Source: Escherichia phage vB_EcoM_WFH | DNA: 64,000 nt | Reading direction: 5' to 3' (one strand) | Sequence record: NC_048194.1 | Shown: piece after piece, positions 2,140-64,000 of the stretch | How the letters are laid out: every line of letters begins with the position of its first letter | Numbering within the stretch: the first letter of the stretch is position 1 | Translations under genes and position numbers: made by a program | The notes under the pieces: model-generated | The model's database searches: none | What the model was told of the DNA's origin: nothing | Seen by the model: the letters and a program-made list of their open reading frames with translations, nothing else

Positions 2140-3600
2140 ATGAATAAAATATTAACACATAATTGGAAAGTCATGTACCAGTTGAATCCTGCTTTAAGAG
2201 AAGTCTGGAAGACGAAAGCGCGATACAAAGTCATATACGGCGGTCGTGCATCTTCCAAATCGCACGATGCCGCTGGTTTTGCTATTTATTTGGCGGCAAA
2301 CTTCAAATTAAAATTCCTTTGCGTTCGACAATTCCAGAACAAGATTTCTGAATCAGTATATACGCTATTAAAAGATAAAATAGAGATTTCTGATTTTAAA
2401 GACGAGTTCAACTTATTAAAAAACTCTATTGAACACAAAAGAACAAAATCTGAATTTTTATTTTACGGTATCGCACGCAACGTTGACGAAATCAAATCAA
2501 CAGAAGGTGTTGATGTTCTTTGGCTTGAAGAAGCGCATGCACTGACTGAAGAGCAATGGGACATTATTGAGCCGACAATTCGTAAGGAAGGGTCCGAAAT
2601 ATGGATCATATTTAACCCTGATGAAGAGGCTGATTTCGTCTACCAGAACTTTGTTATGCGACCGCCGAAAAATGCCATCGTTAAGAAGATTAACTGGCAG
2701 GACAATCCATTCTTGTCGCAAACAATGCTGGATGTTATCGCTGGCATGTATGAGCGCGACCCGAAAAAGGCAGAACACGTTTATGGCGGAGTGCCGAAGA
2801 CAGGTGGCGATAAGTCGGTCATCAACCGTGCATTCGTCAAAGCCGCGCTAAACCTCCACAAACACCCTACGCTGGGATGGAGCTTGTCAGGGTCTAACCG
2901 TATAGGCTTCGACGTGGCGGACGACGGCGACGACTTAAACGCCACAGCGTTTGTCACAGGCAACGTATTACGTGGCATCAAGACATGGGAAGGTCTGGAA
3001 GATGAATTGCTTAAGTCCGCAAGCGGAGTCTGGAAAGACGCATTGACATTCGGCGCATCAATCACCTATGACGCCATCGGTGTTGGTGCATTTGCTGGTT
3101 CAAAATTTGATGAGCTTAATGAGTATGCAATCCATGAAAATCCAACATTCCCAAGAATCGAATTTAATGCGTTCAACGCGCAAGGTGCTGTTGATGATCC
3201 TGATGACGTCTTCCTTGAGTTACCACACGTTGAAATACTCAATAAAGACCATTTCGCAAACATAAAAGCGCAAAAATGGACTGAGATTGCCGAACGATTC
3301 AGAAAGACATATGAGTATGCGACAGGGCAAGCCGTATATCCGACCGATGAGTTGATTTCCATCGACACAGACGGCATCCCAGAACTTGGTATTCCCGCTT
3401 GGTCTGCGGAAGAAATTGAGACGTTTCTTTTTGAGATGTCAGCACCGCGCAAAGACACGTCTGTACTTGGCAAGTTCAAAGTTGAATCGAAAAAGGATAT
3501 GGCAAAGCGTGGAGTCAAATCGCCTAACAAAGCGGACGCAGCAATCATGGCATTGATGAAACCAATTGTTGCAGCATCCGGCTTCTTCTCTAACCTTTAA
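2140..3600 (+). CDS. terL: terminase large subunit
   Basis: 486 aa; N-terminal ATPase Walker A-like KVIYGGRASSKSHDAAGF, Walker B-like VDVLWLEEAH, C-terminal nuclease-like region; first large gene of the morphogenesis block. Confidence 0.85.
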   Translation: MNKILTHNWKVMYQLNPALREVWKTKARYKVIYGGRASSKSHDAAGFAIYLAANFKLKFLCVRQFQNKISESVYTLLKDKIEISDFKDEFNLLKNSIEHKRTKSEFLFYGIARNVDEIKSTEGVDVLWLEEAHALTEEQWDIIEPTIRKEGSEIWIIFNPDEEADFVYQNFVMRPPKNAIVKKINWQDNPFLSQTMLDVIAGMYERDPKKAEHVYGGVPKTGGDKSVINRAFVKAALNLHKHPTLGWSLSGSNRIGFDVADDGDDLNATAFVTGNVLRGIKTWEGLEDELLKSASGVWKDALTFGASITYDAIGVGAFAGSKFDELNEYAIHENPTFPRIEFNAFNAQGAVDDPDDVFLELPHVEILNKDHFANIKAQKWTEIAERFRKTYEYATGQAVYPTDELISIDTDGIPELGIPAWSAEEIETFLFEMSAPRKDTSVLGKFKVESKKDMAKRGVKSPNKADAAIMALMKPIVAASGFFSNL

Positions 3601-3603
3601 CAA

Positions 3604-3843
3604 TTAAAGCATTCCGTGCTGAAGGTCGAGCTTTCTTGCGGCAAACGACCTGGCACGGAATCGCTTACCCGCCCTTACTGCCTGTCGAATTTTCTTTTGC
3701 AAACACTTACGGTCAAAATCGTTGCGGTCGACGGCTTCGAGTAAATCGCGACGCAGTGCACCCAGTGTCGACTTTTCGGAGACTTCAACGCCCAGCGCGG
3801 CTGCAACATCTTTCAAAACATCGAGTTCGGTTAAAGTTCTCAT
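3604..3843 (-). CDS. hypothetical protein with Rho-N/SAP-like N-terminal helix motif
   Basis: 79 aa, MRTLTELDVLKDVAAALGVEV... resembles Rho_N-type helix-extended-helix; basic C-terminus; opposite strand to flanking terL/portal. Confidence 0.4.
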   Translation of the reverse strand: MRTLTELDVLKDVAAALGVEVSEKSTLGALRRDLLEAVDRNDFDRKCLQKKIRQAVRAGKRFRARSFAARKLDLQHGML

Positions 3844-4418: not shown

Positions 4419-6794
4419 ATGAAAATTCTTGGCATAAAACTCTGGGAGAAGACGCAACCAGAAGCCGAACCAGCGGAGATGCCGCCAGGCGACCCATTGG
4501 CACCGTTTGAACGCCTTGAAAGGCGCGGCAGCGGTCAACGCTGGGAAAAGACTGAAAGCAATCGACCGACCTTTAAAACGGTTGATGACTTCCCTTTATA
4601 TGAGCCTGATATTAATGGCGATGGTGTTGCAATCATAAAAGGTCGTTCAGTCGATTCCGCAACAGTATCCAAAAAGGTTATGGATAATGCCTTAAAGAAC
4701 ATCAGTTCAGAAGGGCAAGTCAACCCATACACAGTACCTATTCAACTTCAAAACTGGTATTTGTCACAGTCATTCATCGGCTATCAAGCTTGTGCCATCA
4801 TCGCACAGCATTGGCTGGTGAACAAGGCATGTTCCATGGTAGGCCGCGATGCGGTCCGTAAAGGTTGGGAAGTCAAATCCAGTTCTGAGTCAGAATTGTC
4901 AGTACAGGCAAGCGAACGCCTAAAGCAAATTGATAAAGAATTTAATATCAAAGAGCACTTAGTTGAAGCCGAACGATTCAAAAATATTTTTGGTATCCGC
5001 GTCATCATATTTGATGTGCGTAGCGATGACCCAGAATATTACAGCAAGCCTTTTAACATTGATGGCGTGACAAAGGGGTCTTATAAGGGAATCATTCAGG
5101 TTGACCCTTATTGGATGATGCCGTTTCTGACGTCTGAAAACACCGCCGACCCTGCATCACAGCACTTCTATGATCCAGAATACTGGGTGATCAGCGGACA
5201 ACGTTATCATCGCAGCCACCTAATCATCTTGCGCAATGATGAGCCAGCTGATATTCTCAAGCCAACTTATATTTACGGCGGCATTCCTCTGACTCAGCAG
5301 ATTTATGAACGCATCTATGCCGCTGAACGTACCGCTAACGAAGCGCCATTGCTGGCAATGTCCAAGCGTACAACCACGCTGCGGACAGACGTTGACAAGG
5401 CGATTGCCAATGAGCGGTCTTTTGCAGAACGTCTGATGATGTGGATCAAGTACCGCGACAACTATGCAGTCAAAGTGCTTGGCCAAAAAGAAGAGATGGA
5501 CCAGTTTGACATTAACTTGTCAGACTTCGACAGCATCATCATGAACCAGTACCAGCTTGTGGCCGCAATCGCAAAAGTTCCGTCGACCAAACTGCTTGGG
5601 ACTTCGCCAAAAGGCTTTAACGCCACTGGTGAATTCGAGATGGTCAGCTATCACGAAGAGTTGGAAACGTGCCAGCAGCATGACCTGACAAAAATTCTCG
5701 ACCGCCATTACAAAATCCTTCTCAAATCAGAAGGGGTGGATGTCGATGTTAAGGTTGCATGGGAACCAGTTGGCTCACTTACTGCTACTCAACTTGCAGA
5801 AATCAATGATAAGCGAGCCAACACTGGCAAAACTCTTATTGATGCTGGCGTCATTTCTCCTGATGAAGAGCGCGACCGCATCAAAGACGACAAAAACAGC
5901 GGCTACAACCGTCTGCCGGAAGACGCAGCAGAAGAAACCCCAGGGATGTCTCCAGAGAATATGGCATTGCTTGGCAAGTCTGCTGGTGAAGTCCTGCAAG
6001 GTAAGGCCGATATTGAACAGGCGAAAGCTGATGTCGTTAAGATGGGCGGCCAGTTCTATAGCGAAACAGGTATTATGCCAGAGGGTGCCGCGCGTGGTGA
6101 GTTGGCGGAAAACCCTGACAAAGCGCCTGTCGAAATCAACATGGACGATACCGATGATGAATCAAGCCATCAGGTTGATGTCCTAACGCAGTTGAAAGAA
6201 GGGCTGGAGGGTATTGCGGATTACTACCTGAAAGAAGGTCAGGATGTGGATTTTGACCCTCAAAAAGATTCACGGTCGGTGCAACCGTCTACCCTTCCAA
6301 GCGTTAAAGGACACGTCGTCAACTTACGCCACAACGTGGGTAAAATGGACGCAGCATCATTACCTAAGATGAAGTTGCACGGAATGATTCTTGGCATTGA
6401 GAATCCGCGAAACAGCATTCGTAGAGGAAACAGCCTTGACGGTGAATGGGCCGTGAAGATGCCGCACCACTACGGATTCATCAAGGGCACCAAGGGCGCA
6501 GACGGTGATGAAGTCGACTGCTTTGTGGGTCCAAATCTGAAGTCGCCGAAAGTCTTTATCGTGAACCAAAACGATAACTACTCTGGCGAGTTTGATGAAC
6601 ACAAGTGTATGCTTGGATTCGATTCAGCAGAAGAAGCGAAAGAAGCTTATCAAGCATCATTTGGTAACGGTTGGAACGGATTCGACTCAATCCACGAATT
6701 AGATGTGAACTCATTCAAGGAGTGGTTGAAGGGTGATTGCTCTCAAGCATACGGAGCACTCAATAATCCTACTAATTCACCGAAGCAAGGTTGA
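4419..6794 (+). CDS. putative portal protein with C-terminal inorganic-pyrophosphatase-like domain
   Basis: ATG at 4419 with RBS aggtgg (track start 4386 is TTG). Position immediately after terL and size suggest portal; C-terminal ~120 aa carry DGDEVDC (PPase signature pattern) and GFDSAEEAKEAYQASF resembling E. coli Ppa C-terminus. Confidence 0.55.
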   Translation: MKILGIKLWEKTQPEAEPAEMPPGDPLAPFERLERRGSGQRWEKTESNRPTFKTVDDFPLYEPDINGDGVAIIKGRSVDSATVSKKVMDNALKNISSEGQVNPYTVPIQLQNWYLSQSFIGYQACAIIAQHWLVNKACSMVGRDAVRKGWEVKSSSESELSVQASERLKQIDKEFNIKEHLVEAERFKNIFGIRVIIFDVRSDDPEYYSKPFNIDGVTKGSYKGIIQVDPYWMMPFLTSENTADPASQHFYDPEYWVISGQRYHRSHLIILRNDEPADILKPTYIYGGIPLTQQIYERIYAAERTANEAPLLAMSKRTTTLRTDVDKAIANERSFAERLMMWIKYRDNYAVKVLGQKEEMDQFDINLSDFDSIIMNQYQLVAAIAKVPSTKLLGTSPKGFNATGEFEMVSYHEELETCQQHDLTKILDRHYKILLKSEGVDVDVKVAWEPVGSLTATQLAEINDKRANTGKTLIDAGVISPDEERDRIKDDKNSGYNRLPEDAAEETPGMSPENMALLGKSAGEVLQGKADIEQAKADVVKMGGQFYSETGIMPEGAARGELAENPDKAPVEINMDDTDDESSHQVDVLTQLKEGLEGIADYYLKEGQDVDFDPQKDSRSVQPSTLPSVKGHVVNLRHNVGKMDAASLPKMKLHGMILGIENPRNSIRRGNSLDGEWAVKMPHHYGFIKGTKGADGDEVDCFVGPNLKSPKVFIVNQNDNYSGEFDEHKCMLGFDSAEEAKEAYQASFGNGWNGFDSIHELDVNSFKEWLKGDCSQAYGALNNPTNSPKQG

Positions 6795-7654: not shown

Positions 7655-8575
7655 ATGACGATACCAATCAGCACGTTTCCTCTATCTGGACAAACGCCAG
7701 TATTGCCTGCTGTATATGCTAACGGTTTGGCGATTGTTTCGGAATTCACATCCGATAAAAACCTGATTGTTCCATTGAGTCCGCCATTGGCGTCTGGATA
7801 CAATTCAGTTGGCCAGTTCTTTATGATCGGTAATGATGGCGATTCTACCAGCAAGCCGAATCTGACACTTTCAGTTCCCAAAATGAACATAACAGACGTG
7901 CAGACTGGTTTAACTGCATCTACGATCACCATCGCTTTTGGAGAAGCAGTGATTATAGGCATGGAGTCTGGAGGGTCCAATAATGCTGTCGCCGTTAAGG
8001 TAGTCAAATCCAGCAGCAACCAATACACACTACCAGCGGCAACGGCTTCTATTCTCGGCGGCGTCAAAATAGGAAGTGGCATAAGCGTTGCAGGTGACGG
8101 TACAATTAGTGTGACTCAATACTCATTACCGATTGCATCAGCATCAACCTTGGGTGGCATAAAGGTAGGAACGACACTATCAATTGATGGTTCTGGCGTC
8201 CTTAATGCTGCTGCAAGTACTGTGCAGAACGCAAGCAACAGCGTAAGCAATCCTCCGACAACTCTGGTGAATCTGGCAACCTTAAACCTGCCTGCAGGGA
8301 AATGGCTTGTGACAGCAAGTCAGTTGACTGTCGCGACAGCAGGAGTTCAAGCGAATACCGGAATTACAGTCAAACTGTCAACAAGTAATTCAGATATTAC
8401 GGATGATGCATTTACAATGTCAGCTGGAATTCGGGCTGCAGGTCGTTTCGGCGGCAATATTCCAACAAAGATAATTACCCTTGCCGCGCCTGGCAACGTG
8501 TATCTAAACTATCAATGCACAGACGCATTGACATCTACCGTTTACGGACAGATCACCGCAATTAAGTTGAACTAA
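7655..8575 (+). CDS. virion structural protein with fibre-like internal repeats
   Basis: ATG at 7655 with RBS gagg; repeated ...ASILGGVKIGSGISV.. / ..ASTLGGIKVGTTLSI.. units, Ser/Thr/Gly-rich. Confidence 0.45.
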   Translation: MTIPISTFPLSGQTPVLPAVYANGLAIVSEFTSDKNLIVPLSPPLASGYNSVGQFFMIGNDGDSTSKPNLTLSVPKMNITDVQTGLTASTITIAFGEAVIIGMESGGSNNAVAVKVVKSSSNQYTLPAATASILGGVKIGSGISVAGDGTISVTQYSLPIASASTLGGIKVGTTLSIDGSGVLNAAASTVQNASNSVSNPPTTLVNLATLNLPAGKWLVTASQLTVATAGVQANTGITVKLSTSNSDITDDAFTMSAGIRAAGRFGGNIPTKIITLAAPGNVYLNYQCTDALTSTVYGQITAIKLN

Positions 8576-8585
8576 AGAGGAAGTT

Positions 8586-8723
8586 ATGCAAAAGATTATT
8601 CAGTCACGTTACGTTAAAGTGCGAAATATTAATTGCAACTCTTTGCTTTCTTGGAAATGGGCTGTTTACGACTCGATGCTGATTGGCGTTTTAGTTGCTG
8701 GAGTGCTTTTTAATATTCACTGA
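8586..8723 (+). CDS. small hydrophobic ORF (45 aa)
   Basis: Good RBS aaagaggaa upstream of ATG; product MQKIIQSRYVKVRNINCNSLLSWKWAVYDSMLIGVLVAGVLFNIH; below track size cutoff. Confidence 0.25.
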   Translation: MQKIIQSRYVKVRNINCNSLLSWKWAVYDSMLIGVLVAGVLFNIH

Positions 8724-8756
8724 ATCGCCTGGCAATGGATTGCCGCAGGATTTTAC

Positions 8757-9040
8757 GCGTATAATGACGTATCATCCGTATCAAGTAAGTAGTTGTTTTC
8801 AAAAGAATCTTACGGATGATACGGATGATACGCGTTGCCGCGATACTTTATAGGAATTCAAATAAATTAATTTAAAATTATATATCTAATTTAATTTTAT
8901 TTTTTTATAAACTCTTATATATGAAAAGTATCCGTATCATCCGTATCATCCGTAGCACACCAGTGATAGCGCGGCTTATACACCGATACGGATAAAAATA
9001 CGCCTCATTTTATCCGTATCATCCGTATCACACTAATTAA
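8757..9040. repeat. iteron module copy A: tandem/inverted 9-mers (CCGTATCAT / TTATCCGTA) flanking an AT-rich spacer
   Basis: gcgtataatgacgta..., cttacggatgatacggatgatacgcg, ~90-bp AT-rich tract, then tccgtatcatccgtatcatccgta and ttatccgtatcatccgtatca; 45-bp core nearly identical (2 mismatches) to 60229-60273. Confidence 0.7.
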
Positions 9041-9145
9041 GGCGCGACTATATCGGTTGTTATACATATTCAAACCATAATTATTGTTTGCCTAAGTTTT
9101 TTTCATTAGATATAATACACAATACTTATTTGAGGGTGGATGCGA

Positions 9146-10558
9146 ATGCAAACGGCACGCGAAATTGACAAAAATGGATTCTTGACGATTGTGGGTTGTC
9201 CCATTTCGTCATTTGGCATTTTTGATTATTCTGCAGGTCAGGTTGGACTTGATGGTGATCCGAATCGCATCGTAAAAGTTTATCGCCCAGAGTCAGCGGT
9301 GAAAGACCCCGAAGCGATAGATTCATTCAAAAATATCCCTTTCATCGACAATCACGAAATGCTTTCTGGATTCGAAGGTGATGAGGATAACACAGCACCC
9401 GAAGAGTATGGCGTTGATGGCGTTCTAACTGGCAATGTTTATTATGACAAGCCATGGATGCGCGGCGACCTTAAAGTTTTTAGCCGTCGTCTGAAGAAGG
9501 CCATCGATTCTGGAAAGGTTGACTTGTCTTTGGGCTATGACTGTGAATTCATCATACAGTCTGGAGAGTTTGACGGGCAGCCGTATGAAGTGGTACAGAC
9601 AACTCTTCGCGGCAACCACATTGCTCTCGTGGACGTTGGTCGAGTACCAGGTGCACGGGTGCTGGATGGTCGTTGCTTTGACCATCTTTGTTTGACGACT
9701 GTAACACCATCCAACGAGGATTTAGACATGCCAAAACCGTTAAAAGGTAAAGCGCGTGATAATGCTGTTGAACAGCTGAAATCACTGATCCCTGCGCTCG
9801 AACAATTTCTGAATGAAGAGAGCACCGAAGCTGCTCATCAGGACGAAGTTGAAGTGAAAGCAGAAGAGAAGGATTCAACCGAAGAACGTGAAGAAGTGAT
9901 GGTTGATCCAGAAGTCAAAGCAGAAGCTGAAGAGACTCCAGAAGGTGAAGAGAAGTTTGAAGTTGAAACTGAATCTCACGCTGGCGGCGAGCTTCCGCAA
10001 CTGATCAGCCAAATCGAAGCACTTATTGCAAAACTGAAAGGTGGCGCGGTAGGTGATGAAGAAGAAGTTGAAGCCGAAGTCAAAGACGAAGAAGTTGAAG
10101 TCAAGGCTGAAGATGTATCACCTTGCGACAAAGCTGAAGATGTGGTTAGCGGCCTGCAAAACAGCAACGTAAAGGGGGCTTCGGTCGAAAAAGATGACAA
10201 ACCGACAAAAGCGGCGAAAGCGTCGCCAGGTCCAGCAAAAGGGGAACACTCAATGGCATCTGATTCAGCAGTTGCTGCTTTCTACGCTGATTCTGCTCGT
10301 AAGAATAGCCTCTACCAGCGCCTGTCTAAAGTTGTTGGTGCCTTTGATCATGCAACTATGGACTCCAAGTCCGTAGCGAAATATGGCGCTAAAAAGTTAG
10401 GCTTGAAGTGCGTTGATGGTGCTGAGTTTGACGTGGTGGATAATTATCTGCGCGGCGTTGAACACGGTCAAAAACAGCGTGTAGTCGCAAAACAAAAGGC
10501 CGCTGCGGATTCTGCAGCAACTGACGAAGCATTTGAAGCTTGGTTGAAAGGGGAATAA
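9146..10558 (+). CDS. putative scaffolding protein (possibly protease-scaffold fusion)
   Basis: Position between MuF-like and capsid genes; long highly acidic Glu-rich central region (EEREEVMVDPEVKAEAEETPEGEEKFEVETE...); RBS gagggtgg. Confidence 0.45.
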   Translation: MQTAREIDKNGFLTIVGCPISSFGIFDYSAGQVGLDGDPNRIVKVYRPESAVKDPEAIDSFKNIPFIDNHEMLSGFEGDEDNTAPEEYGVDGVLTGNVYYDKPWMRGDLKVFSRRLKKAIDSGKVDLSLGYDCEFIIQSGEFDGQPYEVVQTTLRGNHIALVDVGRVPGARVLDGRCFDHLCLTTVTPSNEDLDMPKPLKGKARDNAVEQLKSLIPALEQFLNEESTEAAHQDEVEVKAEEKDSTEEREEVMVDPEVKAEAEETPEGEEKFEVETESHAGGELPQLISQIEALIAKLKGGAVGDEEEVEAEVKDEEVEVKAEDVSPCDKAEDVVSGLQNSNVKGASVEKDDKPTKAAKASPGPAKGEHSMASDSAVAAFYADSARKNSLYQRLSKVVGAFDHATMDSKSVAKYGAKKLGLKCVDGAEFDVVDNYLRGVEHGQKQRVVAKQKAAADSAATDEAFEAWLKGE

Positions 10559-19864: not shown

Positions 19865-19867
19865 ACT

Positions 19868-48429: not shown

Positions 48430-49512
48430 ATGGCTAGTTTAAGAGAAGAAGCAAAAATAATCGAAGAGTTTTTGACGGAACTCCAAAGAGGCATTCCAGA
48501 AGATGAACGCGTCATGACCGTGTTTGCTCCTGAAGCAACAGTGCAGACTGACGAGCGCGGCAAAAAGATTAACAGCAGCTTCTGGCCTAAGCCTTGGAAG
48601 CTTGGCAAGCCGCTGATGCAACATCAGAACGGTTACGCCTGCATAAGTTCAATGCGTAAGTCTCCCAACCCAAAGACAGGCGAGATGCGATACTGGCGCA
48701 CGGAATCGGCTTTCGGTCATGGCATGGCGATGATGGTCGACGACATCGGACACGGTAAAGGGTCCAAAGGCGATTTGGATTTGGAGTTCTTTTTCGAGCG
48801 CCTAAAACCAACCGTCATTGTCGAGACTTCGCCGAACAACCACCAGCTGTGGTACTTCTTTAAAGACCCGATTGACCATCTTATCCAGTTCAAGGCATTT
48901 CTTGGGTCTTTCGTAAACATGGTACTCAAGAAGGGCGGCGACAACACGATTAAAGATGTGACGCGCGTTGGCCGTGTTCCTGGGTGTATCAACAACAAAC
49001 GTGTGACTCACGACGGACCTTACAAATATGTCGATGAGAACGGCGACCCGTTCCGCTGCCGACTTGTTCATGCAGACTACTCTTTGCGCTACACAATCGA
49101 AGAGATTTGCCAAGCCTTCGGTTTCCACGTCGTTATGCCGCAAAAGCGTGAAATTCAAATCGACGTTGACGAATACAAATATGACGCTGTTTGGTATAAG
49201 ATAGCCCAGCAAATCCTTGCGCGCAATAAGATGGGCGAAGGGTCCGATGGCGATGTGGTTGAAAACATGTCAGGTAAATGCCGCATCATCTGTCCTTGGG
49301 GTGAAGAGCACACCAACGGCGACCCATACGGCGCTTATTTTCGCGGCCCAATCCCTGGCGCTGAACATGAATTCGTTTTCGGTTGCGCTCACGACTGCCA
49401 CCGGAAAGGGGAAGGCAAGAAAGGATGGACCGCTTTTGTTGAAGCAGTAGTTATGCCTTATATTGAGAATCAACTTGATATGATAAATCGTCGCGCAGGT
49501 GGCATAAAATAG
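48430..49512 (+). CDS. primase-polymerase (archaeo-eukaryotic primase superfamily) with C-terminal zinc-binding region
   Basis: 360 aa; AEP-like motifs MVDDIGHG (DxD), ETSPNNHQLWYFF (His motif), TRVGRVPGCINNKR (motif III-like); C-terminal CRIICPWGEEH...FGCAHDCH cysteine/histidine cluster. Confidence 0.55.
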   Translation: MASLREEAKIIEEFLTELQRGIPEDERVMTVFAPEATVQTDERGKKINSSFWPKPWKLGKPLMQHQNGYACISSMRKSPNPKTGEMRYWRTESAFGHGMAMMVDDIGHGKGSKGDLDLEFFFERLKPTVIVETSPNNHQLWYFFKDPIDHLIQFKAFLGSFVNMVLKKGGDNTIKDVTRVGRVPGCINNKRVTHDGPYKYVDENGDPFRCRLVHADYSLRYTIEEICQAFGFHVVMPQKREIQIDVDEYKYDAVWYKIAQQILARNKMGEGSDGDVVENMSGKCRIICPWGEEHTNGDPYGAYFRGPIPGAEHEFVFGCAHDCHRKGEGKKGWTAFVEAVVMPYIENQLDMINRRAGGIK

Positions 49513-50820: not shown

Positions 50821-52491
50821 ATGTCAATTGAACATGACAATCTTCCAGAGGATACAGGTGATGAATTTGGTGCAATCTTTGACGAAATTCAAGACGCTGG
50901 TGTTTCAGAAGAAATGCAAGCGGCAGAGCAGCAAGGCACCAGAGCTAAAATCAGCCTACAGCACAAGGCTGTTGAGAAAGATGCAGAGCGCATGGAATGC
51001 TACGGTGAAGAAGACTTGGTTGAAAGAGCACGTTTGCTCGCCTCACTTCAGGTAATCAAGTTCCCTCATTATAAACCGACGAAAGATGATTTTGTTCTTC
51101 AGGCGGACCGGACGAGTGACATGAACCGTTATGCGGTTTTCGACGCGTTGTTTGATAAGGGAAGCGGCATCGTCCCATTCCCTCACAAAGATACTTTTCG
51201 TGGACGCTTAGTCGACCATCGCGGCGAAACATTCACCGACCGGACGTTGGAAGTCACAGAGATAGTTGCCGCTGTCGATGCAGCAGGCCTGTCCAACCCA
51301 AACTCACGTCAGGTCGCTCAATCCTATAAGGAATGGGCCATGCGTTATCAGCGCGACGACCTGATGGACTTCTTCTACAAGAAGCTTCCTGAATGGGACG
51401 GTACTGCGCGCATTGAGAAATACCTTATCGAGCTATTCCGACCGTTCGATACAGAGTTAAACCGACAAATCGGTGTGTATTTTTGGCTATCGCTCTATAA
51501 CCGCCTGACCAACCCTGGCTGTCAAGCGCCAATCTCCATCGCGCTCATCGGCGGCCAGAACGCAGGGAAGAGTTATTTTAGTAAGCTGCTTTGCGAAGCT
51601 ATTATGAACGACCGCCACGCAACACCGATTCCGTTGAACTTGGCCGCGCAGAACTTCAACCCGTTCTTGCGAGCTATTACGGGTCGCTCAATTATCGCGA
51701 ACGTTGGCGAGATGACGGGCTTTAAAAAGGCCGACATCGAAAACATGAAGGCATTCCTGACTAAGACGGAAGATGACCTGGACTTCAAATTTGAAGACAC
51801 GCAGGTCAAACCACGCCAGTGGATTGCTATCATGGACGGCAACGAATACGCAGGCATGCAGCGTGACGATACGGGCAACCGTCGTGTGTATCCTATCTTT
51901 GTTGGCCAACTCGCCGACAAGGACGGGCAACCGAACTGGTCAAAAGACTTCCAAGCTGACCTTTCCACTTTGAAAGAAGACGTTTGGCAACTGATGGCTG
52001 AGTGTGCTGCGTGGATGGAGAAGCACGGCGAAGCAGGTTACAACGCGTTTGTCGGTGAAACGTCTCGCATGCTTACTGAGTTCAGTAAGAACGAAATGGA
52101 ACGCGCTCGCGGCGTTATCCGTGATGAGATGGTCGACAACGACCTTGTTGAAGTCGTCATTACCGCGCCTTATGACCGACATCACAGCGGACGCTGGCAC
52201 ATCACCAGTGGTGCAATCGCTATGGGATTCAGAGCTAAGTGCGGCAAGTCGCCTTTCTCACGTACCCTTGCGCCGCACATGTCGAAGCTTGGATTTGAGC
52301 CTGCAACCTATCGCAACCAGCGCGGCTACTTTACGCCGCTGATTAAGAATGAAGCAGGGGAATACATTTCTGACTTGATGACTATCTTAGCGTATCTTAT
52401 TCGCGACGAGTCTGACCCTGAAGATATTGAATTCTTGAAGAAGGTTATTGAACGCAAACGTTCTTTAGGAAGAGATAAGGATGAATTCTGA
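50821..52491 (+). CDS. P-loop NTPase, primase-associated helicase-like (D5/VirE-type)
   Basis: 556 aa; Walker A IALIGGQNAGKSYFSKLL in central region with upstream primase-C-terminal-like segment; RBS ggagga. Confidence 0.45.
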   Translation: MSIEHDNLPEDTGDEFGAIFDEIQDAGVSEEMQAAEQQGTRAKISLQHKAVEKDAERMECYGEEDLVERARLLASLQVIKFPHYKPTKDDFVLQADRTSDMNRYAVFDALFDKGSGIVPFPHKDTFRGRLVDHRGETFTDRTLEVTEIVAAVDAAGLSNPNSRQVAQSYKEWAMRYQRDDLMDFFYKKLPEWDGTARIEKYLIELFRPFDTELNRQIGVYFWLSLYNRLTNPGCQAPISIALIGGQNAGKSYFSKLLCEAIMNDRHATPIPLNLAAQNFNPFLRAITGRSIIANVGEMTGFKKADIENMKAFLTKTEDDLDFKFEDTQVKPRQWIAIMDGNEYAGMQRDDTGNRRVYPIFVGQLADKDGQPNWSKDFQADLSTLKEDVWQLMAECAAWMEKHGEAGYNAFVGETSRMLTEFSKNEMERARGVIRDEMVDNDLVEVVITAPYDRHHSGRWHITSGAIAMGFRAKCGKSPFSRTLAPHMSKLGFEPATYRNQRGYFTPLIKNEAGEYISDLMTILAYLIRDESDPEDIEFLKKVIERKRSLGRDKDEF

Positions 52492-55148: not shown

Positions 55149-55153
55149 ATATC

Positions 55154-55185
55154 AAAAAGGTGAGCTAAATGCTTGCCTTTTCTTT
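55154..55185 (+). terminator. intrinsic terminator, copy 1 of a duplicated element (AAAAAGGTGAGC-TAAAT-GCTTGCCTTTT)
   Basis: Hairpin with G:U-tolerant stem followed by TTTTCTTTT; near-identical copy at 56692-56725. Confidence 0.55.
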
Positions 55186-55233
55186 TATCAATACTTATAC
55201 TCTTTTCATCAAGACTAACAAGTGAGGTGAATT

Positions 55234-56689: not shown

Positions 56690-56691
56690 TT

Positions 56692-59818: not shown

Positions 59819-59834
59819 TAGTGATTAATGTTAA

Positions 59835-60143: not shown

Positions 60144-60440
60144 AGCGTATAATGACGTAAGATTTGGACCTATCCGTAGTTCACTCCACACACTTCTATG
60201 GTGCGCCGCGACTGGGTTCAGTGGTACATCTTACGGATGATACGGATGATACGCGTCGCCGCTATACTTTATACAACTTTGAAAAAAACAATTAACTCCA
60301 TTTTGAATTAATTTAAATTAATTTTTTTCTACATCCTCATACTTATACTAAACTTATATTTATACGTATTATCCGTAAGATATAAGTAAAAACAAAGACT
60401 TGCGGCAATACGGATGATACGTCATGATACGCTTCAACCA
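60144..60440. repeat. iteron module copy B (homologous to 8757-9040)
   Basis: gcgtataatgacgta...; tcttacggatgatacggatgatacgcgtcgccgctatactttata (45-bp core, 2 mismatches vs copy A); AT-rich spacer; ttatccgtaag and caatacggatgatacgtcatgatacgc. Confidence 0.7.
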
Positions 60441-60578
60441 GCCAGCAGCGGCTAAGTCATTGATTTGCATAACAAGCGGCGAAAGGGATGGATTTCTTTT
60501 ATGCGTATCAAACAGTACACCACGCACCACGGTCCGATATTCATTCAGCACTATGATTTATGTACTTTTACAGCCAAT

Positions 60579-60605
60579 TTGAACATCAATCTGCACTTGA
60601 ATATA
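60579..60605 (+). promoter_or_regulatory. promoter-like element (TTGAAC ... TGnAATAAT) upstream of TerS-like gene
   Basis: -35-like TTGAAC and extended -10-like TGAATAAT about 50 bp upstream of ATG 60658, followed by two tandem ATTTGCACTATG repeats. Confidence 0.35.
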
Positions 60606-60657
60606 ATGTTCAATCATTGTATAATTCACACTATTAATTTGCACTATGGGATTTGCA

Positions 60658-61133
60658 CTATGAGTCAAGATTATGTAGCAATGCCTGAAGACTTTGAAGA
60701 CCCGCGATTTGCAGAGCATAATCAGGCATTATTCGATGAGTTCATTGACCTTGTTATTCAGGGCCATGACATGCGCGCAGCTTTTGCACTAGTATTTGGC
60801 ATGGAGGTTGCGACCGATAACTACACTGGCCAGCGAATCCTGTGCACTCAGCGCAACCCGTACTACAAGATGCGCTACAAAAAGCGCATGGAAGAAATGC
60901 CATTGAAGGAATTGTGGAGCGTAAAAAGTTCCATCCACAATTTAGTGAAGCTTGTGCGTGATCCAGAAGTCGCGGCGTCAGCCAAGCTTAATGCCATTCG
61001 TGAACTGAATATCATCTACGGCATCACGATGATTGATGAAAATGGCAATAGTAAAATGGGCCGTTCCATGGACGATTTCTACAAGGATTTTGGAGAGGCA
61101 GCCAAAGAGGGTGAGCAATTCTCCCGCCACTAG
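60658..61133 (+). CDS. terminase small subunit-like DNA-binding protein (tentative)
   Basis: ATG at 60658 (track ORF 60465 starts upstream in AT-rich non-coding DNA); 158 aa; ...NQALFDEFIDLVIQGHDMRAAFALVFG...RILCTQRNPYYKMRYKK... resembles TerS N-terminal HTH pattern; start codon overlaps a repeat copy. Confidence 0.3.
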
Positions 61134-61150
61134 CCAATTTGCACTATAAA

Positions 61151-61188
61151 ACGGCCCTAGAACACATTTTCTCCACTTCTAGGGCCGT
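61151..61188 (+). terminator. stem-loop (ACGGCCCTAGAA-n14-TTCTAGGGCCGT) downstream of TerS-like gene
   Basis: 12-bp stem; no strong U-tract. Confidence 0.45.
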
Positions 61189-61561
61189 TGGTAATACGAC
61201 GGGGAAGGCTGCAACCATGAACGCGTTAGAAAGTGTATTATTATAAGTCATCTTTTAGTCACTTTACGTAACAATTTACGACCTTCCGCCGTCCAGTCGA
61301 ACGACTCCACCAGCAGATTTGCACTATAACCTAAGACGATGCGCCCCTTCTCGTTATCGACCCGCCAACAAGTCTCGAATAGCATTCGATTTGCACTATT
61401 AACTATCGCCGCAACGCGCGTTGGGTAAGCGCAATTTGCACTATGGTCGTAAAGGGATAAGGTGCGACCACTGCCGATGGACAACGTAGCGATGAGAATA
61501 AGCGTATTCATAAGCCACCAATTTGCACTATGAAAAGCGACCCCGAAGGGCCGCCATTCGA

Positions 61562-62188
61562 TTAGATAATCTGGAAGGTGTAGGACTTGTTGCCGAACTC
61601 GAAGTTCAAGCGCCCAGCTTCCTTAAGCTTCATGCGGAAGCGAATATGTTTGCTATCCGGTAAGCCCAGCGCGGCGAACGCTACGCGGACCGATTTGAAC
61701 TCGCCTACACCCTCGACCATAACGGCGTTACGGGTGAGACGCTTTTGCGCCACTTCCTTGTTATCCCAACTTTTTGCAATACCTTCGCTATTAGAACGGC
61801 GATGGGAAGGAGTTCCATTTTGCACTACGCAATTTGCACTATCGTTTAGGCCGCTCTTAACGAAGGCTTCATACTCTTCGTCGGTCATCGCGTCGAGTTC
61901 TTCCTGAGTCGGCTCGGCCTTTTTAACGACCGCACGCGCCTTATGCGTTTTTACATCGCTGGACACTTCCTCGCGCGGCTTCGCGTCGGGGATGGGCAAT
62001 TCGTTGGACGGCTCATCGAGCGCGTTTAAGGACTCGATTAACGCGATGACGCGAGTCTCAGCGGTGCGACGGTCCACAAACTTCTTAATCGGTTTTGAGC
62101 CGGAGTTGGCATTATAGAATGCAACGAGGTCGGCGGTCTTAGTTGCGATAACGTCGCCGCTAGTAGAAAAGCGATTTAAGCTAACCAT
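61562..62188 (-). CDS. hypothetical protein (208 aa)
   Basis: Track ORF in CpG-rich block; contains two ATTTGCACTAT-type motifs within its coding sequence (61817-61842); no recognised domain. Confidence 0.4.
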   Translation of the reverse strand: MVSLNRFSTSGDVIATKTADLVAFYNANSGSKPIKKFVDRRTAETRVIALIESLNALDEPSNELPIPDAKPREEVSSDVKTHKARAVVKKAEPTQEELDAMTDEEYEAFVKSGLNDSANCVVQNGTPSHRRSNSEGIAKSWDNKEVAQKRLTRNAVMVEGVGEFKSVRVAFAALGLPDSKHIRFRMKLKEAGRLNFEFGNKSYTFQII

Positions 62189-62268
62189 AATAAACTCCTA
62201 TTTGTTAGGGCGCTAGGCGCGAAAGAATTTTATTAAAGCGCCGCGCACGACGCTCTAAAAATCCTCTC

Positions 62269-62583
62269 TTACTCTTCGTCGTCTTCGATTAATTCGAAGG
62301 CGAAGGCATAAGCTTTGCTATCGTAATTAACTAAAACGGCGAGTTCGAACTCGTTAATAAACGCCGTTTTACCGCATAAATTTAATTCCGCATCGACTTC
62401 GAAGAATCCGTTTTCGTCGCGCTCTAAGCGAGAAGCAGCGAGTTGCTCGATTACCGTCGCGTCGTTAATTTCTTCGCCTAAGCGAACGCCGGAGAATTTC
62501 GCGAGAATTTCGCCGTAAGTAAGCGTAACACCCTGGACTTCGGCGGTTGCGTTTTCGAGGGTGAAGCGGGTAACGATAGCCAT
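62269..62583 (-). CDS. small acidic protein, paralogue C (104 aa)
   Basis: RBS aggag; very acidic (ends ...FELIEDDEE); similar size and charge to 62808..63110 and 63217..63507; driven by minus-strand copy of shared promoter module. Confidence 0.45.
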   Translation of the reverse strand: MAIVTRFTLENATAEVQGVTLTYGEILAKFSGVRLGEEINDATVIEQLAASRLERDENGFFEVDAELNLCGKTAFINEFELAVLVNYDSKAYAFAFELIEDDEE

Positions 62584-62651
62584 TTTAAACTCCTAGTTGG
62601 GAGAGGCGTTAACGACCTATTCGTTAACTCATCCCGTCCCGATATGAGTAC

Positions 62652-62679
62652 ATTATAATATAGTGTAGAAAAAAGTAAA
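62652..62679 (-). promoter_or_regulatory. sigma70-like promoter, minus-strand copy of shared module (TTTACT-16-TATAAT)
   Basis: Reverse complement of 62634-62686 reads AAAGTGCTTTACT...TTATAAT...ATATCGGGACGGG, matching the two plus-strand copies. Confidence 0.45.
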
Positions 62680-62723
62680 GCACTTTTTCGATAAAAATGC
62701 GATAAATTATTTTATCTTTTTTC

Positions 62724-62751
62724 TTTACTTCTTCGTACACTCGCGTATACT
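62724..62751 (+). promoter_or_regulatory. sigma70-like promoter, plus-strand copy 1 (TTTACT-16-TATACT)
   Basis: CTTTACTTCTTCGTACACT core shared with 63121-63149; followed by ATATCGAGACGGG. Confidence 0.45.
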
Positions 62752-62807
62752 TGTTTATATCGAGACGGGCGATGGCCCTTTCTTCTACTAGCATCGGGAG
62801 CTTTATT

Positions 62808-63110
62808 ATGACTACTTTAATCTCTTCCATCCTTACTTACGACGAAGACCGCTTAACCGTTCGCTCTCTTATCGCCGCCGTTAACGCGGAACTAGAATCT
62901 AGCGCCATCAAGGTCCGTGCCGTTGCCTTCGTCGGCCTTTCCTTCGACGATATTAAGTATGCAGAGTATAGCGCCATTCGCGTTGTTACTACCGACGATA
63001 ACGCCGTTACCCTTATCGAGACGGTTACGCCGCGCGGCGAAGCGTTAATTATCGTCGAGTATATCGACGTAGAAGGCGATAAAGCTTATAAATATTTTAT
63101 CGCAGAATAA
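62808..63110 (+). CDS. small acidic protein, paralogue A (100 aa)
   Basis: ATG at 62808 with RBS gggag (track start 62751 upstream); MTTLISSILTYDEDRLTVRSL... Confidence 0.45.
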   Translation: MTTLISSILTYDEDRLTVRSLIAAVNAELESSAIKVRAVAFVGLSFDDIKYAEYSAIRVVTTDDNAVTLIETVTPRGEALIIVEYIDVEGDKAYKYFIAE

Positions 63111-63120
63111 CGAAAAGTGC

Positions 63121-63149
63121 TTTACTTCTTCGTACACTAAGACTATAAT
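63121..63149 (+). promoter_or_regulatory. sigma70-like promoter, plus-strand copy 2 (TTTACT-17-TATAAT)
   Basis: AAAGTGCTTTACTTCTTCGTACACT...TATAAT...ATATCGAGAGGGG. Confidence 0.5.
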
Positions 63150-63216
63150 GTTTTATATCGAGAGGGGATGAGGTAGCGAATAGGTCGCTACCCTCCCGAC
63201 TAACTAGGAGAATATT

Positions 63217-63507
63217 ATGATTACTTTAGCCGCTATCCGTTCCGCTCGCGTCGAAACTTCCGAAAACTCTAACGTATTTGGCGAAAAACTTAAAAACGTT
63301 TATCTCTTTAACGTAGATGCGACTATCGAAGAGCTTCATAGTCCTATCGATTTTAGCGAATTTACGGAACTCGAAGAGGAAGATATTACTACCTTCCGCG
63401 TTACTATCGAAGGTAAGGTTTATTTTGCTACGGAGTTCGGCGGCGAATATCTCGCGGTATCCGAAGGCGAAGGCCGTTACTCTTTCTTTAAAATCGTCTC
63501 CTTATAA
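63217..63507 (+). CDS. small acidic protein, paralogue B (96 aa)
   Basis: ATG with RBS aggag; MITLAAIRSARVETSENSNVFGEKLKNVYLFNVDATIEELHSPIDFSEFTELEEEDITTF... Confidence 0.45.
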   Translation: MITLAAIRSARVETSENSNVFGEKLKNVYLFNVDATIEELHSPIDFSEFTELEEEDITTFRVTIEGKVYFATEFGGEYLAVSEGEGRYSFFKIVSL

Positions 63508-63527
63508 TACCCTTCCGTTACTAATAG

Positions 63528-63553
63528 GCCGCGCTTAGTCGCGGCTTTTCTTC
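63528..63553 (+). terminator. intrinsic terminator (GCCGCG-CTTAGT-CGCGGC + TTTTCTTCG)
   Basis: GC stem plus U-tract directly after paralogue B. Confidence 0.6.
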
Positions 63554-63960
63554 GTCCCTATCTCGATGCGCTTCTCCGCGAAAACTCCTTTATCCTTCCC
63601 TTCGTCGTCGCATAATCTTCGTCGAGATGCGCCTTAGTTCGCATAACAGGTATTACGTTAAATGGAGAACATCGCGTAAGTCCTTGTTTTATATAGACAC
63701 CTATATCGGACCGTTAGGGAGGGTCGCGCAAGTCGTTGTTTTATAAAGGCGCAAAACTTTCCCTTCGTTCCGAACTAAAACGAGAAATATGCCGACCCTT
63801 CGCCCGAAAATAGTACGCATGCGAAATTACATGTATCTAGAATAATCCCCACCGATATTATCCTACACGCAATCATTAGCTTTCGAATCATTATGCTTCA
63901 TACTATTATGCGTCGAATCATTCGCTTTCTAATTGTAACGCTGGAAACTGTAACGGCGAT
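63554..63960. repeat. ORF-free tract rich in short direct repeats at window end
   Basis: No ORF of 60 aa or more; recurring short motifs (AATCATT x3, TTCGAATCATT x2, TTGTTTTATA x2, GATGCGC x2, CGCATAA x2, TGTAACG x2); window ends inside it. Confidence 0.4.
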
Positions 63961-64000
63961 TGATTATTGCGTTCGTGTGGTTTTTAGGGCATGGGTCTTT

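What the first reader, a model, noticed from the sequence alone, without database searches (positions are those of the whole stretch)
8757..9040. Iteron module A: inverted tandem DnaA-box-like 9-mers around an AT-rich spacer, upstream of the scaffold-capsid genes
In the 560-bp gap between the fibre-repeat structural gene and the scaffold gene: gcgTATAATgacgta, then cttACGGATGATACGGATGATACGcg, about 90 bp of nearly pure A/T, then tCCGTATCATCCGTATCATCCGTAgc, taCGGATAAaa and tTTATCCGTATCATCCGTATCAc. The 9-mer TTATCCGTA differs from the DnaA box TTATCCACA at two positions. Repeated 9-mers in both orientations flanking an AT-rich unwinding-like element is origin-of-replication architecture; it could equally be a late promoter with activator sites. 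A 45-bp core is duplicated almost exactly at 60229-60273.
Basis: seen in the sequence. Interest (0 to 1): 0.65.

Follow-up and report, generated by a model that had tools for sequence, protein, structure and literature searches.

The report
Internal twin of phage origin/terminus module
This 300-bp non-coding stretch of an E. coli Wifcevirus phage is one of two copies of a palindromic element: short repeats on both sides of the most A/T-rich DNA in the genome. It is most likely a replication origin read by the phage's own SaPI-Rep-like helicase, and its twin copy is where the packaged DNA end is made.

Summary
All ten exact copies of the 8-mer CGTATCAT in the 64-kb window lie in module A (8757-9031) or module B (60145-60432).

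The window is a Wifcevirus, an ECML-117/WFC-like E. coli myovirus with a ~3.7-kb direct terminal repeat (DTR).

A and B are collinear paralogues. Each has inverted 9-bp iteron arms around the two most A/T-rich 80-bp stretches of the genome.

The same A/B pair, with different iterons, occurs in Pantoea (Kylevirus), Serratia (Myosmarvirus) and Pseudomonas (Pbunavirus) relatives.

- A always sits upstream of the head protease gene.
- B always holds the physical DNA end and lies upstream of a small terminase gene that Wifcevirus records leave unannotated.
- In three genera B lies directly downstream of a primase-helicase whose best structural match is the SaPI1 initiator Rep1.

The architecture matches the SaPI origin. 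The best reading (about 0.5) is that A is an internal copy of a Rep-type iteron origin, and that B is origin plus packaging start.

The DnaA-box idea is rejected, and the "TATAAT" is an iteron variant. The real promoter is at 9088-9116.

Rival readings are a terminase-binding site that lacks the cut site, and transcriptional control of the head operon. No replication or binding data exist.

The parts
8757..8785 (+). Module A, outer-left array: three tandem 9-mers GCGTATAAT|GACGTATCAT|CCGTATCAA (the 'TATAAT' is unit 1)
   Evidence: no -35 partner; same 23-mer at 60137-60159 (D15)
8811..8832 (-). Module A, left inner arm (ACGGATGAT)2ACG
   Evidence: 22/22 inverted repeat with 8933-8954 (I5); identical at 60232-60253
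8833..8858 (+). G/C-containing joint CGTTGCCGCGATAC plus a 'TTTATAGGAA' box. Similar TATA(A/T)AGG-type boxes follow the left arm in PA1, MTx and PA8P1
8845..8925 (.). A/T-rich spacer, the most A/T-rich 80 bp of the window (91%); proposed DNA-unwinding element
   Evidence: part of a long imperfect palindrome (ssDNA fold dG -33.1 kcal/mol, z = -7.5)
8930..8954 (+). Module A, right inner arm ATCCGTATCATCCGTATCATCCGTA
8989..8996 (-). Single degenerate unit CGGATAAA
   Evidence: aligned with ATACGGATGATACG of module B
9010..9031 (+). Module A, outer-right array TTATCCGTATCATCCGTATCAC
9088..9116 (+). Sigma-70-type promoter TTGCCT-17-TATAAT of the protease/scaffold/capsid operon. It is adjacent to the iteron module, not part of it
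   Evidence: homologous promoter in phage 14-1 has a mapped TSS (P014, 13257)
9140..10558 (+). Head maturation protease gene (DUF2213), the gene downstream of module A in all four genera
60145..60162 (+). Module B, outer-left units GCGTATAAT|GACGTAAGA
60232..60253 (-). Module B, left inner arm, identical to 8811-8832
   Evidence: D2, I3
60254..60364 (.). Module B spacer, containing the physical left end of the virion DNA between 60299 and 60300 (AATTAACTCC|ATTTTGAATT)
   Evidence: WFC record (DTR 3784 bp) starts at the base homologous to 60300. The Mansfield record, opened at its PhageTerm DTR boundary (PMC6753283), ends at 60299. The second most A/T-rich 80 bp of the window is here. The 'AACTCC' at the cut is conserved in three B copies but reads 'AATTTA' in A
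60365..60382 (+). Module B, degenerate right inner arm CGTATTATCCGTAAGATA
60409..60432 (-). Module B, outer-right array ATACGGATGATACGTCATGATACG
   Evidence: (I1)
60660..61133 (+). Small terminase gene, annotated 'hypothetical' in the Wifcevirus records
   Evidence: phmmer against PDB: E217 TerS 7UXE, E=9e-33; a TerS homologue lies directly downstream of module B in PA1, MyoSmar, MTx and PA8P1
60300..64000 (.). Left part of the direct terminal repeat; its right boundary lies about 95 nt beyond the window end
50821..52488 (+). VapE-like primase-helicase, the candidate iteron-binding initiator
   Evidence: Pfam PF05272 E=1.6e-28. SaPI1 Rep1 7PDS by sequence, E=4e-11, and by fold, E=1.9e-16, TM 0.5-0.6. 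Predicted C-terminal winged-helix-like fold at residues 459-504. C-terminal 150 aa are 21-34% identical between genera against 52-61% for the core
48430..49509 (+). RepB-type primase gene, which lies upstream of the helicase in all relatives (pri-rep order)

Best explanation
Module A is the internal copy of a two-copy replication-origin element of the iteron type.

Proposed mechanism:
- The 9-bp units nCGTATCAT lie in opposite orientation on the two sides of an ~80-90-bp A/T-rich spacer.
- They are proposed to be read by the C-terminal winged-helix domain of the phage's own SaPI-Rep1-like self-loading primase-helicase (window 50821-52488).
- Complexes assembled head-to-head on the two arms would melt the spacer and start replication.

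The twin copy, module B at 60145-60432, is the same element with extra sequences added. These include a conserved AACTCC|A cut site, strand-skewed flanks, and the small terminase gene directly downstream. They make B also the place where the left end of the virion DNA (the left boundary of the DTR) is generated. Module A lacks those cut-site bases and is not known to be cut.

Shown: the anatomy, the A/B paralogy, its conservation with co-varying iterons in four genera, the position of the DNA end in B, and the homology and predicted fold of the helicase.

Inferred: that the helicase binds the iterons, and that either module fires as an origin.
For: 1. Architecture. Both modules have at least two iterons on each side of an A/T-rich centre, pointing in opposite directions. 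The spacers of A and B are the two most A/T-rich 80-bp windows of the genome here and in PA1, MyoSmar and PA8P1. This is the layout PMC9371898 describes for SaPI origins.

2. Cognate initiator candidate. The VapE-like protein's only PDB sequence hit is SaPI1 Rep1 (7PDS, E=4e-11). Its AlphaFold model (pLDDT 86) has Rep1 as best fold match by a wide margin (E=1.9e-16 over ~480 columns; the next hit is 4e-07). The model ends in a beta-alpha-alpha-beta-beta unit typical of a winged helix.

3. Synteny. In Pbunavirus PA8P1, Myosmarvirus MyoSmar and MTx, and Carpasinavirus XcP1, module B (or a B-like module) lies directly downstream of this gene, which follows a RepB-type primase. This is the pri-rep-ori order.

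4. Co-variation. The iterons differ between genera: CGTATCAT in Wifcevirus, AACGGTTAT in PA1, TACTTTTCG in MyoSmar/MTx, GGTAATTTGG in PA8P1. Within each genome they are the same in A and B, and B is the best non-self blastn hit of A in all four (E=1e-18, 9e-21, 7e-10, 1e-14). The helicase C-terminal 150 aa is the fast-evolving part of the protein. It is identical in its putative recognition helix in MyoSmar and MTx, which share an iteron.

5. The only iteron change between the window and WFC copies of A falls on the variable n position.

6. Transcription. No start is listed inside the core of the homologous 14-1 module. There is no Rfam family and no host copy.

7. Precedents for two iteron sites read by one initiator are P4 ori/crr and SPP1 oriL/oriR (my own knowledge).
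Against: - There are no replication data for any member of the group. GC skew only follows transcription direction.
- The one function demonstrated for the paralogue B is packaging-related. The virion end lies in its spacer in Wifcevirus, Kylevirus, Myosmarvirus and Pbunavirus, and TerS is encoded directly downstream in five phages. The iterons could therefore be terminase sites.
- In this window the helicase gene is 7.7 kb from B and about 42 kb from A.
- Carpasinavirus XcP1 has a B-like module but no A, so A is dispensable in at least one lineage.
- SaPI iterons are 5-6 nt and dispersed. Here the units are 9 nt and contiguous.
- TerS also diverges fast (31-40% between genera).
Confidence: 0.5

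Rival explanations
1. Terminase-recognition module. The iterons are binding sites of the small terminase, and B is the pac / DTR-left-end site. A is a second terminase-binding site that lacks the cut site. It could serve an auxiliary role, such as synapsis with B (as proposed for T4 gp16 sites) or coupling head-gene expression to terminase level.
For: - The physical DNA end lies between the iteron arms of B in four genera.
- TerS is encoded immediately downstream of B in Wifcevirus, PA1, MyoSmar, MTx and PA8P1.
- Repeats flanking a central cut is the layout of the P1 and SPP1 pac sites (my own knowledge).
- TerS is the least conserved of the compared proteins (31-40%).
- A differs from B exactly at the conserved cut-site bases.
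Against: - E217 TerS showed no appreciable DNA binding in vitro (PMC9611059).
- An uncut pac-like site kept for this long upstream of the protease gene has no known role.
- In XcP1 the B-like module stays next to the helicase gene but is 3 kb from TerS.
- 80-90 bp of nearly pure A/T, the least stable DNA of the genome, is typical of unwinding elements rather than of known pac sites.
- None of the 27 Wifcevirus records matched starts at A.
Confidence: 0.22
2. Transcriptional control region. The iterons are operators for a phage regulator that times or boosts the sigma-70 promoters just downstream, those of the protease-scaffold-capsid operon at A and of terS at B. The A/T-rich DNA would act as a bend or UP-like element.
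For: - Both modules lie 60-230 bp upstream of good sigma-70 promoters of head or packaging genes.
- The 14-1 homologues of those promoters are real (P014, P041), and one TSS (P040) starts in the right arm of B.
- Earlier papers predicted a promoter in the A/T centre of the Pbunavirus module (PMC3008698).
- Unrelated contigs carry the same 9-mers in operator-like inverted repeats.
Against: - No TSS is listed in the core of module A in 14-1.
- 'GCGTATAAT' has no -35.
- The model explains neither the DNA end in B nor the extreme A/T content.
- In Pbunavirus the arms are about 200 bp from the promoter.
- No candidate regulator was found. Pfam found nothing for 10 flanking ORFs, and PHROGs matched only families of unknown function.
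Confidence: 0.13
3. Host-DnaA-dependent origin, with the 9-mers acting as DnaA boxes.
For: The units are 9 nt long, and two copies read TTATCCGTA, which has 2 mismatches to TTATCCACA.
Against: - No iteron is within 1 mismatch of TTATNCACA, and matches are not enriched (50 against 62 expected).
- The mismatches fall in the conserved CACA part of the box (my own knowledge of the consensus).
- The iterons change completely in relatives that infect other hosts, including Enterobacterales whose DnaA box is the same.
Confidence: 0.03
4. Functionless duplication or host-derived repeat: A is a decaying copy of B kept similar by gene conversion.
For: A and B resemble each other beyond the iterons (75-80% over 100-150 nt), as gene conversion would produce.
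Against: - A is present at the same position in four genera whose protease is only 44-58% identical.
- A's arms are intact, and it is a better palindrome than B (z = -7.5 against -2.7).
- There is no match in 5,426 E. coli genomes.
Confidence: 0.04

Closest known systems
SaPI/PICI replication origin with its Rep self-loading helicase (SaPI1 Rep1, SaPIbov1 ori; PMC9371898 and the Ubeda et al. papers cited there)
   Same: Short iterons in two sets of opposite orientation flank a central A/T-rich region. The initiator is a hexameric helicase with a C-terminal winged helix. The origin lies directly downstream of rep, after a primase gene; here this holds for module B in Pbunavirus, Myosmarvirus and Carpasinavirus. 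Specificity is lineage-specific. Rep1 is the best sequence and fold match of the phage protein.
   Different: The units are 9 bp and contiguous rather than 5-6 bp and dispersed. There are two copies per genome. Module A is far from rep and sits in the head-gene cluster. Module B also contains the virion DNA end. The element belongs to a virulent 68-kb myovirus, not a satellite. Binding is untested.
Phage P4 ori and crr, bound by the alpha primase-helicase (my own knowledge)
   Same: Two separate iteron clusters kilobases apart are read by the winged-helix domain of one primase-helicase.
   Different: P4 ori and crr are 4.5 kb apart and differ in structure. Here the two copies are collinear paralogues 16.7 kb apart (51.5 kb the other way round). 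Whether both are needed in cis is unknown.
Bacillus phage SPP1 oriL/oriR (G38P) and T7 primary and secondary origins near the concatemer junction (my own knowledge)
   Same: There is more than one origin-like module per genome. One lies in the late-gene region (SPP1 oriR) or next to the terminal repeat (T7 phiOL/phiOR).
   Different: The initiators differ: G38P for SPP1, T7 RNA polymerase promoters for T7. In neither case has the DNA end been mapped inside the origin spacer itself.
pac sites of P1 and SPP1 (my own knowledge)
   Same: Repeats lie on both sides of a central cleavage region next to the terminase genes. This fits module B.
   Different: Module A has no known end and lacks the conserved cut-site bases. 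Known pac sites do not have 80-90 bp of nearly pure A/T. A conserved second copy is not a feature of pac sites.
oriC-type origins with DnaA boxes
   Same: 9-mer repeats lie next to an A/T-rich unwinding element.
   Different: The repeats do not match the DnaA box, and they change between relatives.

Membership tests
Rep-type iteron origin (SaPI/PICI-like) | Two sets of short iterons in opposite orientation flanking a central A/T-rich region | tested here: met
   Arms 8811-8832 (-) and 8933-8954 (+) flank a 91% A+T spacer, with outer arrays on both sides. The same layout holds in PA1, MyoSmar/MTx and PA8P1.
Rep-type iteron origin (SaPI/PICI-like) | Genome encodes a Rep-like self-loading helicase with a C-terminal winged-helix domain | tested here: met
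   Window 50821-52488. 7PDS (SaPI1 Rep1) matches by sequence at E=4e-11 and by fold at E=1.9e-16. The model shows beta-alpha-alpha-beta-beta at residues 459-504. This is a prediction, not a solved structure.
Rep-type iteron origin (SaPI/PICI-like) | Origin lies immediately downstream of the rep ORF | tested here: inconclusive
   Not met for module A in any genome. For module B it is met in PA8P1, MyoSmar, MTx and XcP1. It is not met in this window (7.7 kb of small ORFs lie between) or in PA1 (6.2 kb).
Rep-type iteron origin (SaPI/PICI-like) | Rep binds the iterons specifically and melts the A/T-rich region; the element supports replication | not testable with these tools
   Only indirect support is available. 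The iterons co-vary in A and B across four genera, and the helicase C-terminus evolves fast.
DnaA-box origin (oriC type) | Cluster of sites matching TTATNCACA | tested here: not met
   No iteron is within 1 mismatch. The window holds 50 matches against 62 expected, with no enrichment in 8757-9040.
pac / terminase recognition site | A virion DNA end maps inside the element | tested here: inconclusive
   Met for module B. For module A, none of the 27 Wifcevirus records matched starts there and the conserved AACTCC cut-site bases are absent. Raw reads were not examined.
pac / terminase recognition site | Lies in or next to the small terminase gene | tested here: not met
   Module A lies between a 45-codon ORF and the protease gene. 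TerS is about 16.7 kb upstream of A on the linear genome map, at window 60660, beside module B.
pac / terminase recognition site | Small terminase binds the repeats | not testable with these tools
   E217 TerS was reported not to bind DNA appreciably in vitro (PMC9611059). The substrate used is unknown to me.
Sigma-70 promoter (for the 'TATAAT' at 8760) | -35 and -10 hexamers at 16-18 bp spacing, and a transcription start | tested here: not met
   The scan does not pick it. The only strong site is 9088-9116. In 14-1 the only TSS listed in the homologous region is the protease-proximal P014.

The most novel reading that the evidence does not exclude
In this whole phage group (Pbunavirus, Wifcevirus, Kylevirus, Myosmarvirus) the packaged DNA end is made inside the unwinding spacer of a Rep-type origin. 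Replication initiation and terminase cutting would then be physically coupled: the initiator complex or the melted origin would license the cut, while TerS has little sequence specificity of its own. Module A would be a cut-site-less origin that separates the two functions.
Probability: 0.2. Interest if true: 0.75.

Novelty: new member of a known kind. Interest (0 to 1): 0.5.

Why it matters
Pbunavirus phages are among the most used therapeutic Pseudomonas phages, and Wifcevirus phages are reported to replicate unusually fast. For neither group is an origin of replication or a packaging signal defined.

This analysis gives two concrete candidate cis elements, a candidate initiator (a SaPI-Rep1-like primase-helicase) and the small terminase gene, which Wifcevirus records leave unannotated. 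It also shows that the DNA end lies inside one of the two elements in four genera.

That makes several questions directly testable by EMSA, marker-frequency sequencing and iteron swaps. Where do these phages start replication? How is the left boundary of the terminal repeat chosen? Why is an uncut twin of that site conserved in front of the head genes?

It is also useful for engineering, for example in rebooting phages, building minimal replicons and defining packaging signals.

Tried and rejected
- **GC and AT skew**: they only mirror transcription direction and give no origin signal.
- **DnaA-box scan**: negative.
- **Host origin of the repeats**: blastn against 5,426 E. coli genomes found no match.
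- **Rfam**: only sub-threshold hairpin-like chance matches.
- **Pfam and PHROGs on 10 ORFs around module B and in the DTR**: no DNA-binding family was recognised.
- **Profile of the helicase C-terminus against PDB sequences**: nothing found.
- **Protein search with the C-terminal fragment alone**: nothing found.
- **Exact-pattern scan of IMG/VR for (ACGGATGAT)2**: apart from Wifceviruses there were four single hits. Two are coding (TDDTDD) and two are operator-like in unrelated GC-rich contigs. None is informative about the reader protein.
- **Sister-genus test** (contig L028), meant to separate TerS from the helicase as the iteron reader: both proteins and the iteron core are conserved together, so the test did not discriminate.
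- **Literature on Carpasinavirus termini**: nothing usable.
- **The E217 terminase paper**: could not be read.
- **A role for TTGCCGC as a module-specific second motif**: rejected, because the 7-mer is over-represented genome-wide.
- **The small ORF 8695-8853** (52 aa, TTG start) that overlaps the module: not treated as a gene, because it runs through the iterons and no relative's annotation has it.

Full report
**What the window is.** Megablast of 8000-10500 finds 27 phage records at 95-99.6% identity. All are E. coli/Shigella myoviruses of the genus Wifcevirus, such as WFH, WFC, ECML-117, FEC19, Mansfield and Bas98-101. These genomes have about 68 kb of unique sequence plus a direct terminal repeat (DTR) of about 3.7 kb (PMC6563267, PMC6753283).

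The gene map, taken from the Bas99 and WFC annotations, runs as follows:
- large terminase, portal, head morphogenesis protein, a fibre-like protein and a 45-codon ORF;
- the 415-bp gap that holds the finding;
- head maturation protease (9140-10558), scaffold-like protein, major capsid protein, tail genes and endolysin, all on the + strand;
- replication genes on the - strand;
- two primase-type genes and about 45 small ORFs on the + strand, up to a second gap at about 60.1-60.6 kb;
- the DTR.

The repeat unit is a 9-mer, nCGTATCAT, mostly in contiguous tandem. Units lie at 8758, 8768 and 8777 (+), 8816 and 8825 (-), 8933, 8942, 9015 and 9024 (+), with partial units at the array ends and at 8989-8996.

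The arms 8811-8832 and 8933-8954 are a perfect 22-bp inverted repeat 100 nt apart.

The spacer is the most A/T-rich 80 bp of the 64-kb window, at 91%.

The 13-mer ATCATCCGTATCA with up to 2 mismatches occurs 14 times against 1.4 expected. All ten exact CGTATCAT cores of the window lie either here (6) or in a second cluster at 60145-60432 (4).

The "TATAAT" at 8760 is simply the first unit of the array GCGTATAAT|GACGTATCAT|CCGTATCAA, and it has no -35 partner.

As single-stranded DNA, 8800-8965 folds into a long hairpin (dG -33.1 kcal/mol, z = -7.5). The core is therefore an imperfect ~145-bp palindrome.

**The second copy is more than a 45-bp duplicate.** I call the finding module A and the 60.2-kb cluster module B. 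The two align collinearly over about 300 nt (blastn E=1e-18). The shared order is:
- outer-left units,
- left arm (identical 22-mer),
- a G/C-containing joint,
- a TATAGG-type box,
- the A/T-rich spacer,
- right arm,
- outer-right units.

**Module B contains the physical left end of the genome.** The WFC record (72,472 bp) carries the DTR at both ends, since gp001 at 361-834 equals gp107 at 69049-69522. Its first base corresponds to window 60300. The Mansfield record was opened at the DTR boundary predicted by PhageTerm (PMC6753283), and it ends at window 60299.

The end lies in the spacer of B (AATTAACTCC|ATTTTGAATT). That is 46 nt from the left arm and 65 nt from the degenerate right arm, close to the dyad centre.

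**The gene directly downstream of B is the small terminase.** The gene at 60660-61133 is annotated "hypothetical" in the Wifcevirus records I inspected. It matches the solved TerS of Pseudomonas phage E217 (7UXE) at E=9e-33. That agrees with the report that E217 TerS lies ~58 kb from TerL (PMC9611059).

**Relatives.** The same pair of modules, with different iterons, exists in three other genera. In each genome the repeated 8-mers of the protease-upstream gap cluster at exactly one other place, and that place is the best non-self blastn hit of the gap.

| Genus and phage | Iteron | Module A (upstream of protease) | Module B | blastn A vs B |
|---|---|---|---|---|
| Wifcevirus (this window) | CGTATCAT | 8757-9031 | 60145-60432 | 1e-18 |
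| Kylevirus, Pantoea PA1 | AACGGTTAT | 60197-60487 | 42611-42840 | 9e-21 |
| Myosmarvirus, Serratia MyoSmar | TACTTTTCG | 54793-55055 | about 3467-3607 | 7e-10 |
| Pbunavirus, Pseudomonas PA8P1 | GGTAATTTGG-like | 19484-20034 | across the record ends | 1e-14 |

Further points from the relatives:
- In all four genera the two spacers are the two most A/T-rich 80-bp windows of the genome.
- TerS lies directly downstream of B in every case.
- The physical end lies in B wherever it is known:
  - MyoSmar: the PhageTerm DTR boundary at 3559 is 34 nt from an iteron.
  - MTx: the DTR boundary lies between its arms.
  - Kyle: a 3,603-bp DTR whose left end lies in the spacer.
  - Pbunavirus Ab27: position 1 was set from reads with a fixed end (PMC4482731), and PA8P1 starts 2 nt away. 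Both lie between the arms.
- Xanthomonas phage XcP1 (Carpasinavirus) has a B-like palindromic A/T-rich module but no module A.

The finding is therefore a deeply conserved element whose repeats co-evolve with those at the genome terminus. It is not a host repeat, because 5,426 E. coli genomes give no match.

**Which protein reads the iterons?** There are two candidates.

The first is TerS. It is always next to B, and B is where the DNA is cut.

The second is the VapE-like primase-helicase at 50821-52488:
- Its only PDB sequence hit is SaPI1 Rep1 (7PDS, E=4e-11).
- An AlphaFold model built on 38 homologues (pLDDT 86) has Rep1 as its best fold match by nine orders of magnitude (E=1.9e-16, ~480 aligned columns).
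- The model ends in a beta-alpha-alpha-beta-beta unit (residues 459-504) of winged-helix type.
- Between genera the ATPase core is 52-61% identical, but the C-terminal 150 residues are only 21-34% identical.

According to PMC9371898, SaPI Reps are self-loading helicase-initiators. Their C-terminal winged helix reads iterons. The origin lies immediately downstream of rep and has an A/T-rich centre with at least two iterons on each side pointing in opposite directions.

That is the anatomy of modules A and B. It is also the position of B in Pbunavirus, Myosmarvirus and Carpasinavirus, where B follows the helicase gene, which itself follows a RepB-type primase gene. In Wifcevirus and Kylevirus, 6-8 kb of small ORFs lie between the helicase gene and B.

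In XcP1 the module stays with the helicase gene and is 3 kb from TerS.

**Transcription.** The only good sigma-70 promoter in the gap is 9088-9116, TTGCCT-17-TATAAT.

Its homologue in Pbunavirus 14-1 is a mapped start site (P014, 13257). No start is listed within the core of that module. In B, one start (P040) lies in the right arm and another (P041) just upstream of terS (supplement of 10.1101/2023.10.13.562163).

An older prediction of a promoter in the A/T centre (PMC3008698) is not borne out by those data.

**DnaA.** No iteron is within one mismatch of TTATNCACA, and such matches are not enriched (50 against 62 expected). The iterons also change completely between relatives.

**A differs from B at the cut.** Three B copies (this window, WFC, and a sister-genus contig whose helicase is 75% identical) share AATTAACTCC|ATTTT, although the rest of the spacer varies. 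Module A reads AATTAATTTAAAAT at the aligned position.

None of the 27 Wifcevirus records matched starts at A. B also has flanks that A lacks:
- a C-poor G+T-rich tract on the left (59900-60080);
- a 21-mer shared with MyoSmar (60197-60217).

**Conclusion.** The best-supported reading (about 0.5) is that A is an internal copy of a Rep-type iteron origin. B is the same element combined with the packaging start.

The main rival (about 0.2) is that the iterons are terminase sites and A is an uncut auxiliary site. A regulatory role for the head operon is less likely (about 0.13). The DnaA version is rejected.

Nothing here shows binding or initiation; those steps are inferred.

The sister-genus comparison could not separate the two candidate readers, because TerS, the helicase C-terminus and the iteron core are all conserved together.

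Noticed in passing
window, whole length (e.g. 8740, 8835, 60084, 60402): The 7-mer TTGCCGC occurs 43 times against 12.9 expected (0 of 100 shuffles). It lies on both strands and mostly inside genes. PA1 has 36 copies and MyoSmar 30; no expected count was computed for those two.
   Followed up: partly
window 60641-60663, 61127-61149, 61307-61329, 61822-61844; L028 15185-15220: The motif TTGCACTAT(G/A) recurs upstream of genes in the terminal repeat. Two copies abut or overlap the TerS start codon, and a sister-genus contig has three copies there.
   Followed up: no
window 59900-60080: A strongly strand-skewed tract, G+T-rich and almost free of C, lies just left of module B. Similar tracts lie left of B in MyoSmar, MTx and PA8P1. 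C-rich tracts lie right of B in PA8P1, MTx and XcP1, where the 11-bp unit ACAACCCCAGA repeats four times.
   Followed up: partly
window 60197-60217; MyoSmar 3655-3632 (reverse complement): The 21-mer CTATGGTGCGCCGCGACTGGG is conserved between Wifcevirus and Myosmarvirus just left of module B. In MyoSmar an inverted partner lies about 260 nt downstream, bracketing the module.
   Followed up: no
window 60660-61133: The small terminase gene is annotated 'hypothetical protein' in the Wifcevirus records inspected. It lies inside the direct terminal repeat, so virion DNA carries it twice.
   Followed up: yes
window 63885-63935; WFC 3575-3640: Two copies of AATCATT(A/C)GC(T/C)TTC(G/T)AAT lie about 150 nt before the right boundary of the terminal repeat. 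No CGTATCAT iterons occur there. The window ends about 95 nt before that boundary.
   Followed up: no
window 55152-55186 and 56691-56725; 57883-57942 and 59183-59242: Near-identical 35-nt (94%) and 60-nt (78%) direct repeats occur among the small early ORFs. They suggest paralogous small genes or repeated translation-start regions.
   Followed up: no
L018 about 5200-5500; L025 about 3370-3450 (IMG/VR contigs): Unrelated GC-rich viral contigs carry the same (ACGGATGAT)2 tandem as part of inverted repeats in non-coding, operator-like regions.
   Followed up: partly
window 59800-60228 compared with other Wifcevirus genomes: In 13 of the 27 matching records, homology to this window begins exactly at 60228, the left edge of module B's arm. 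The early-gene side of B is therefore a mosaic breakpoint within the genus.
   Followed up: no
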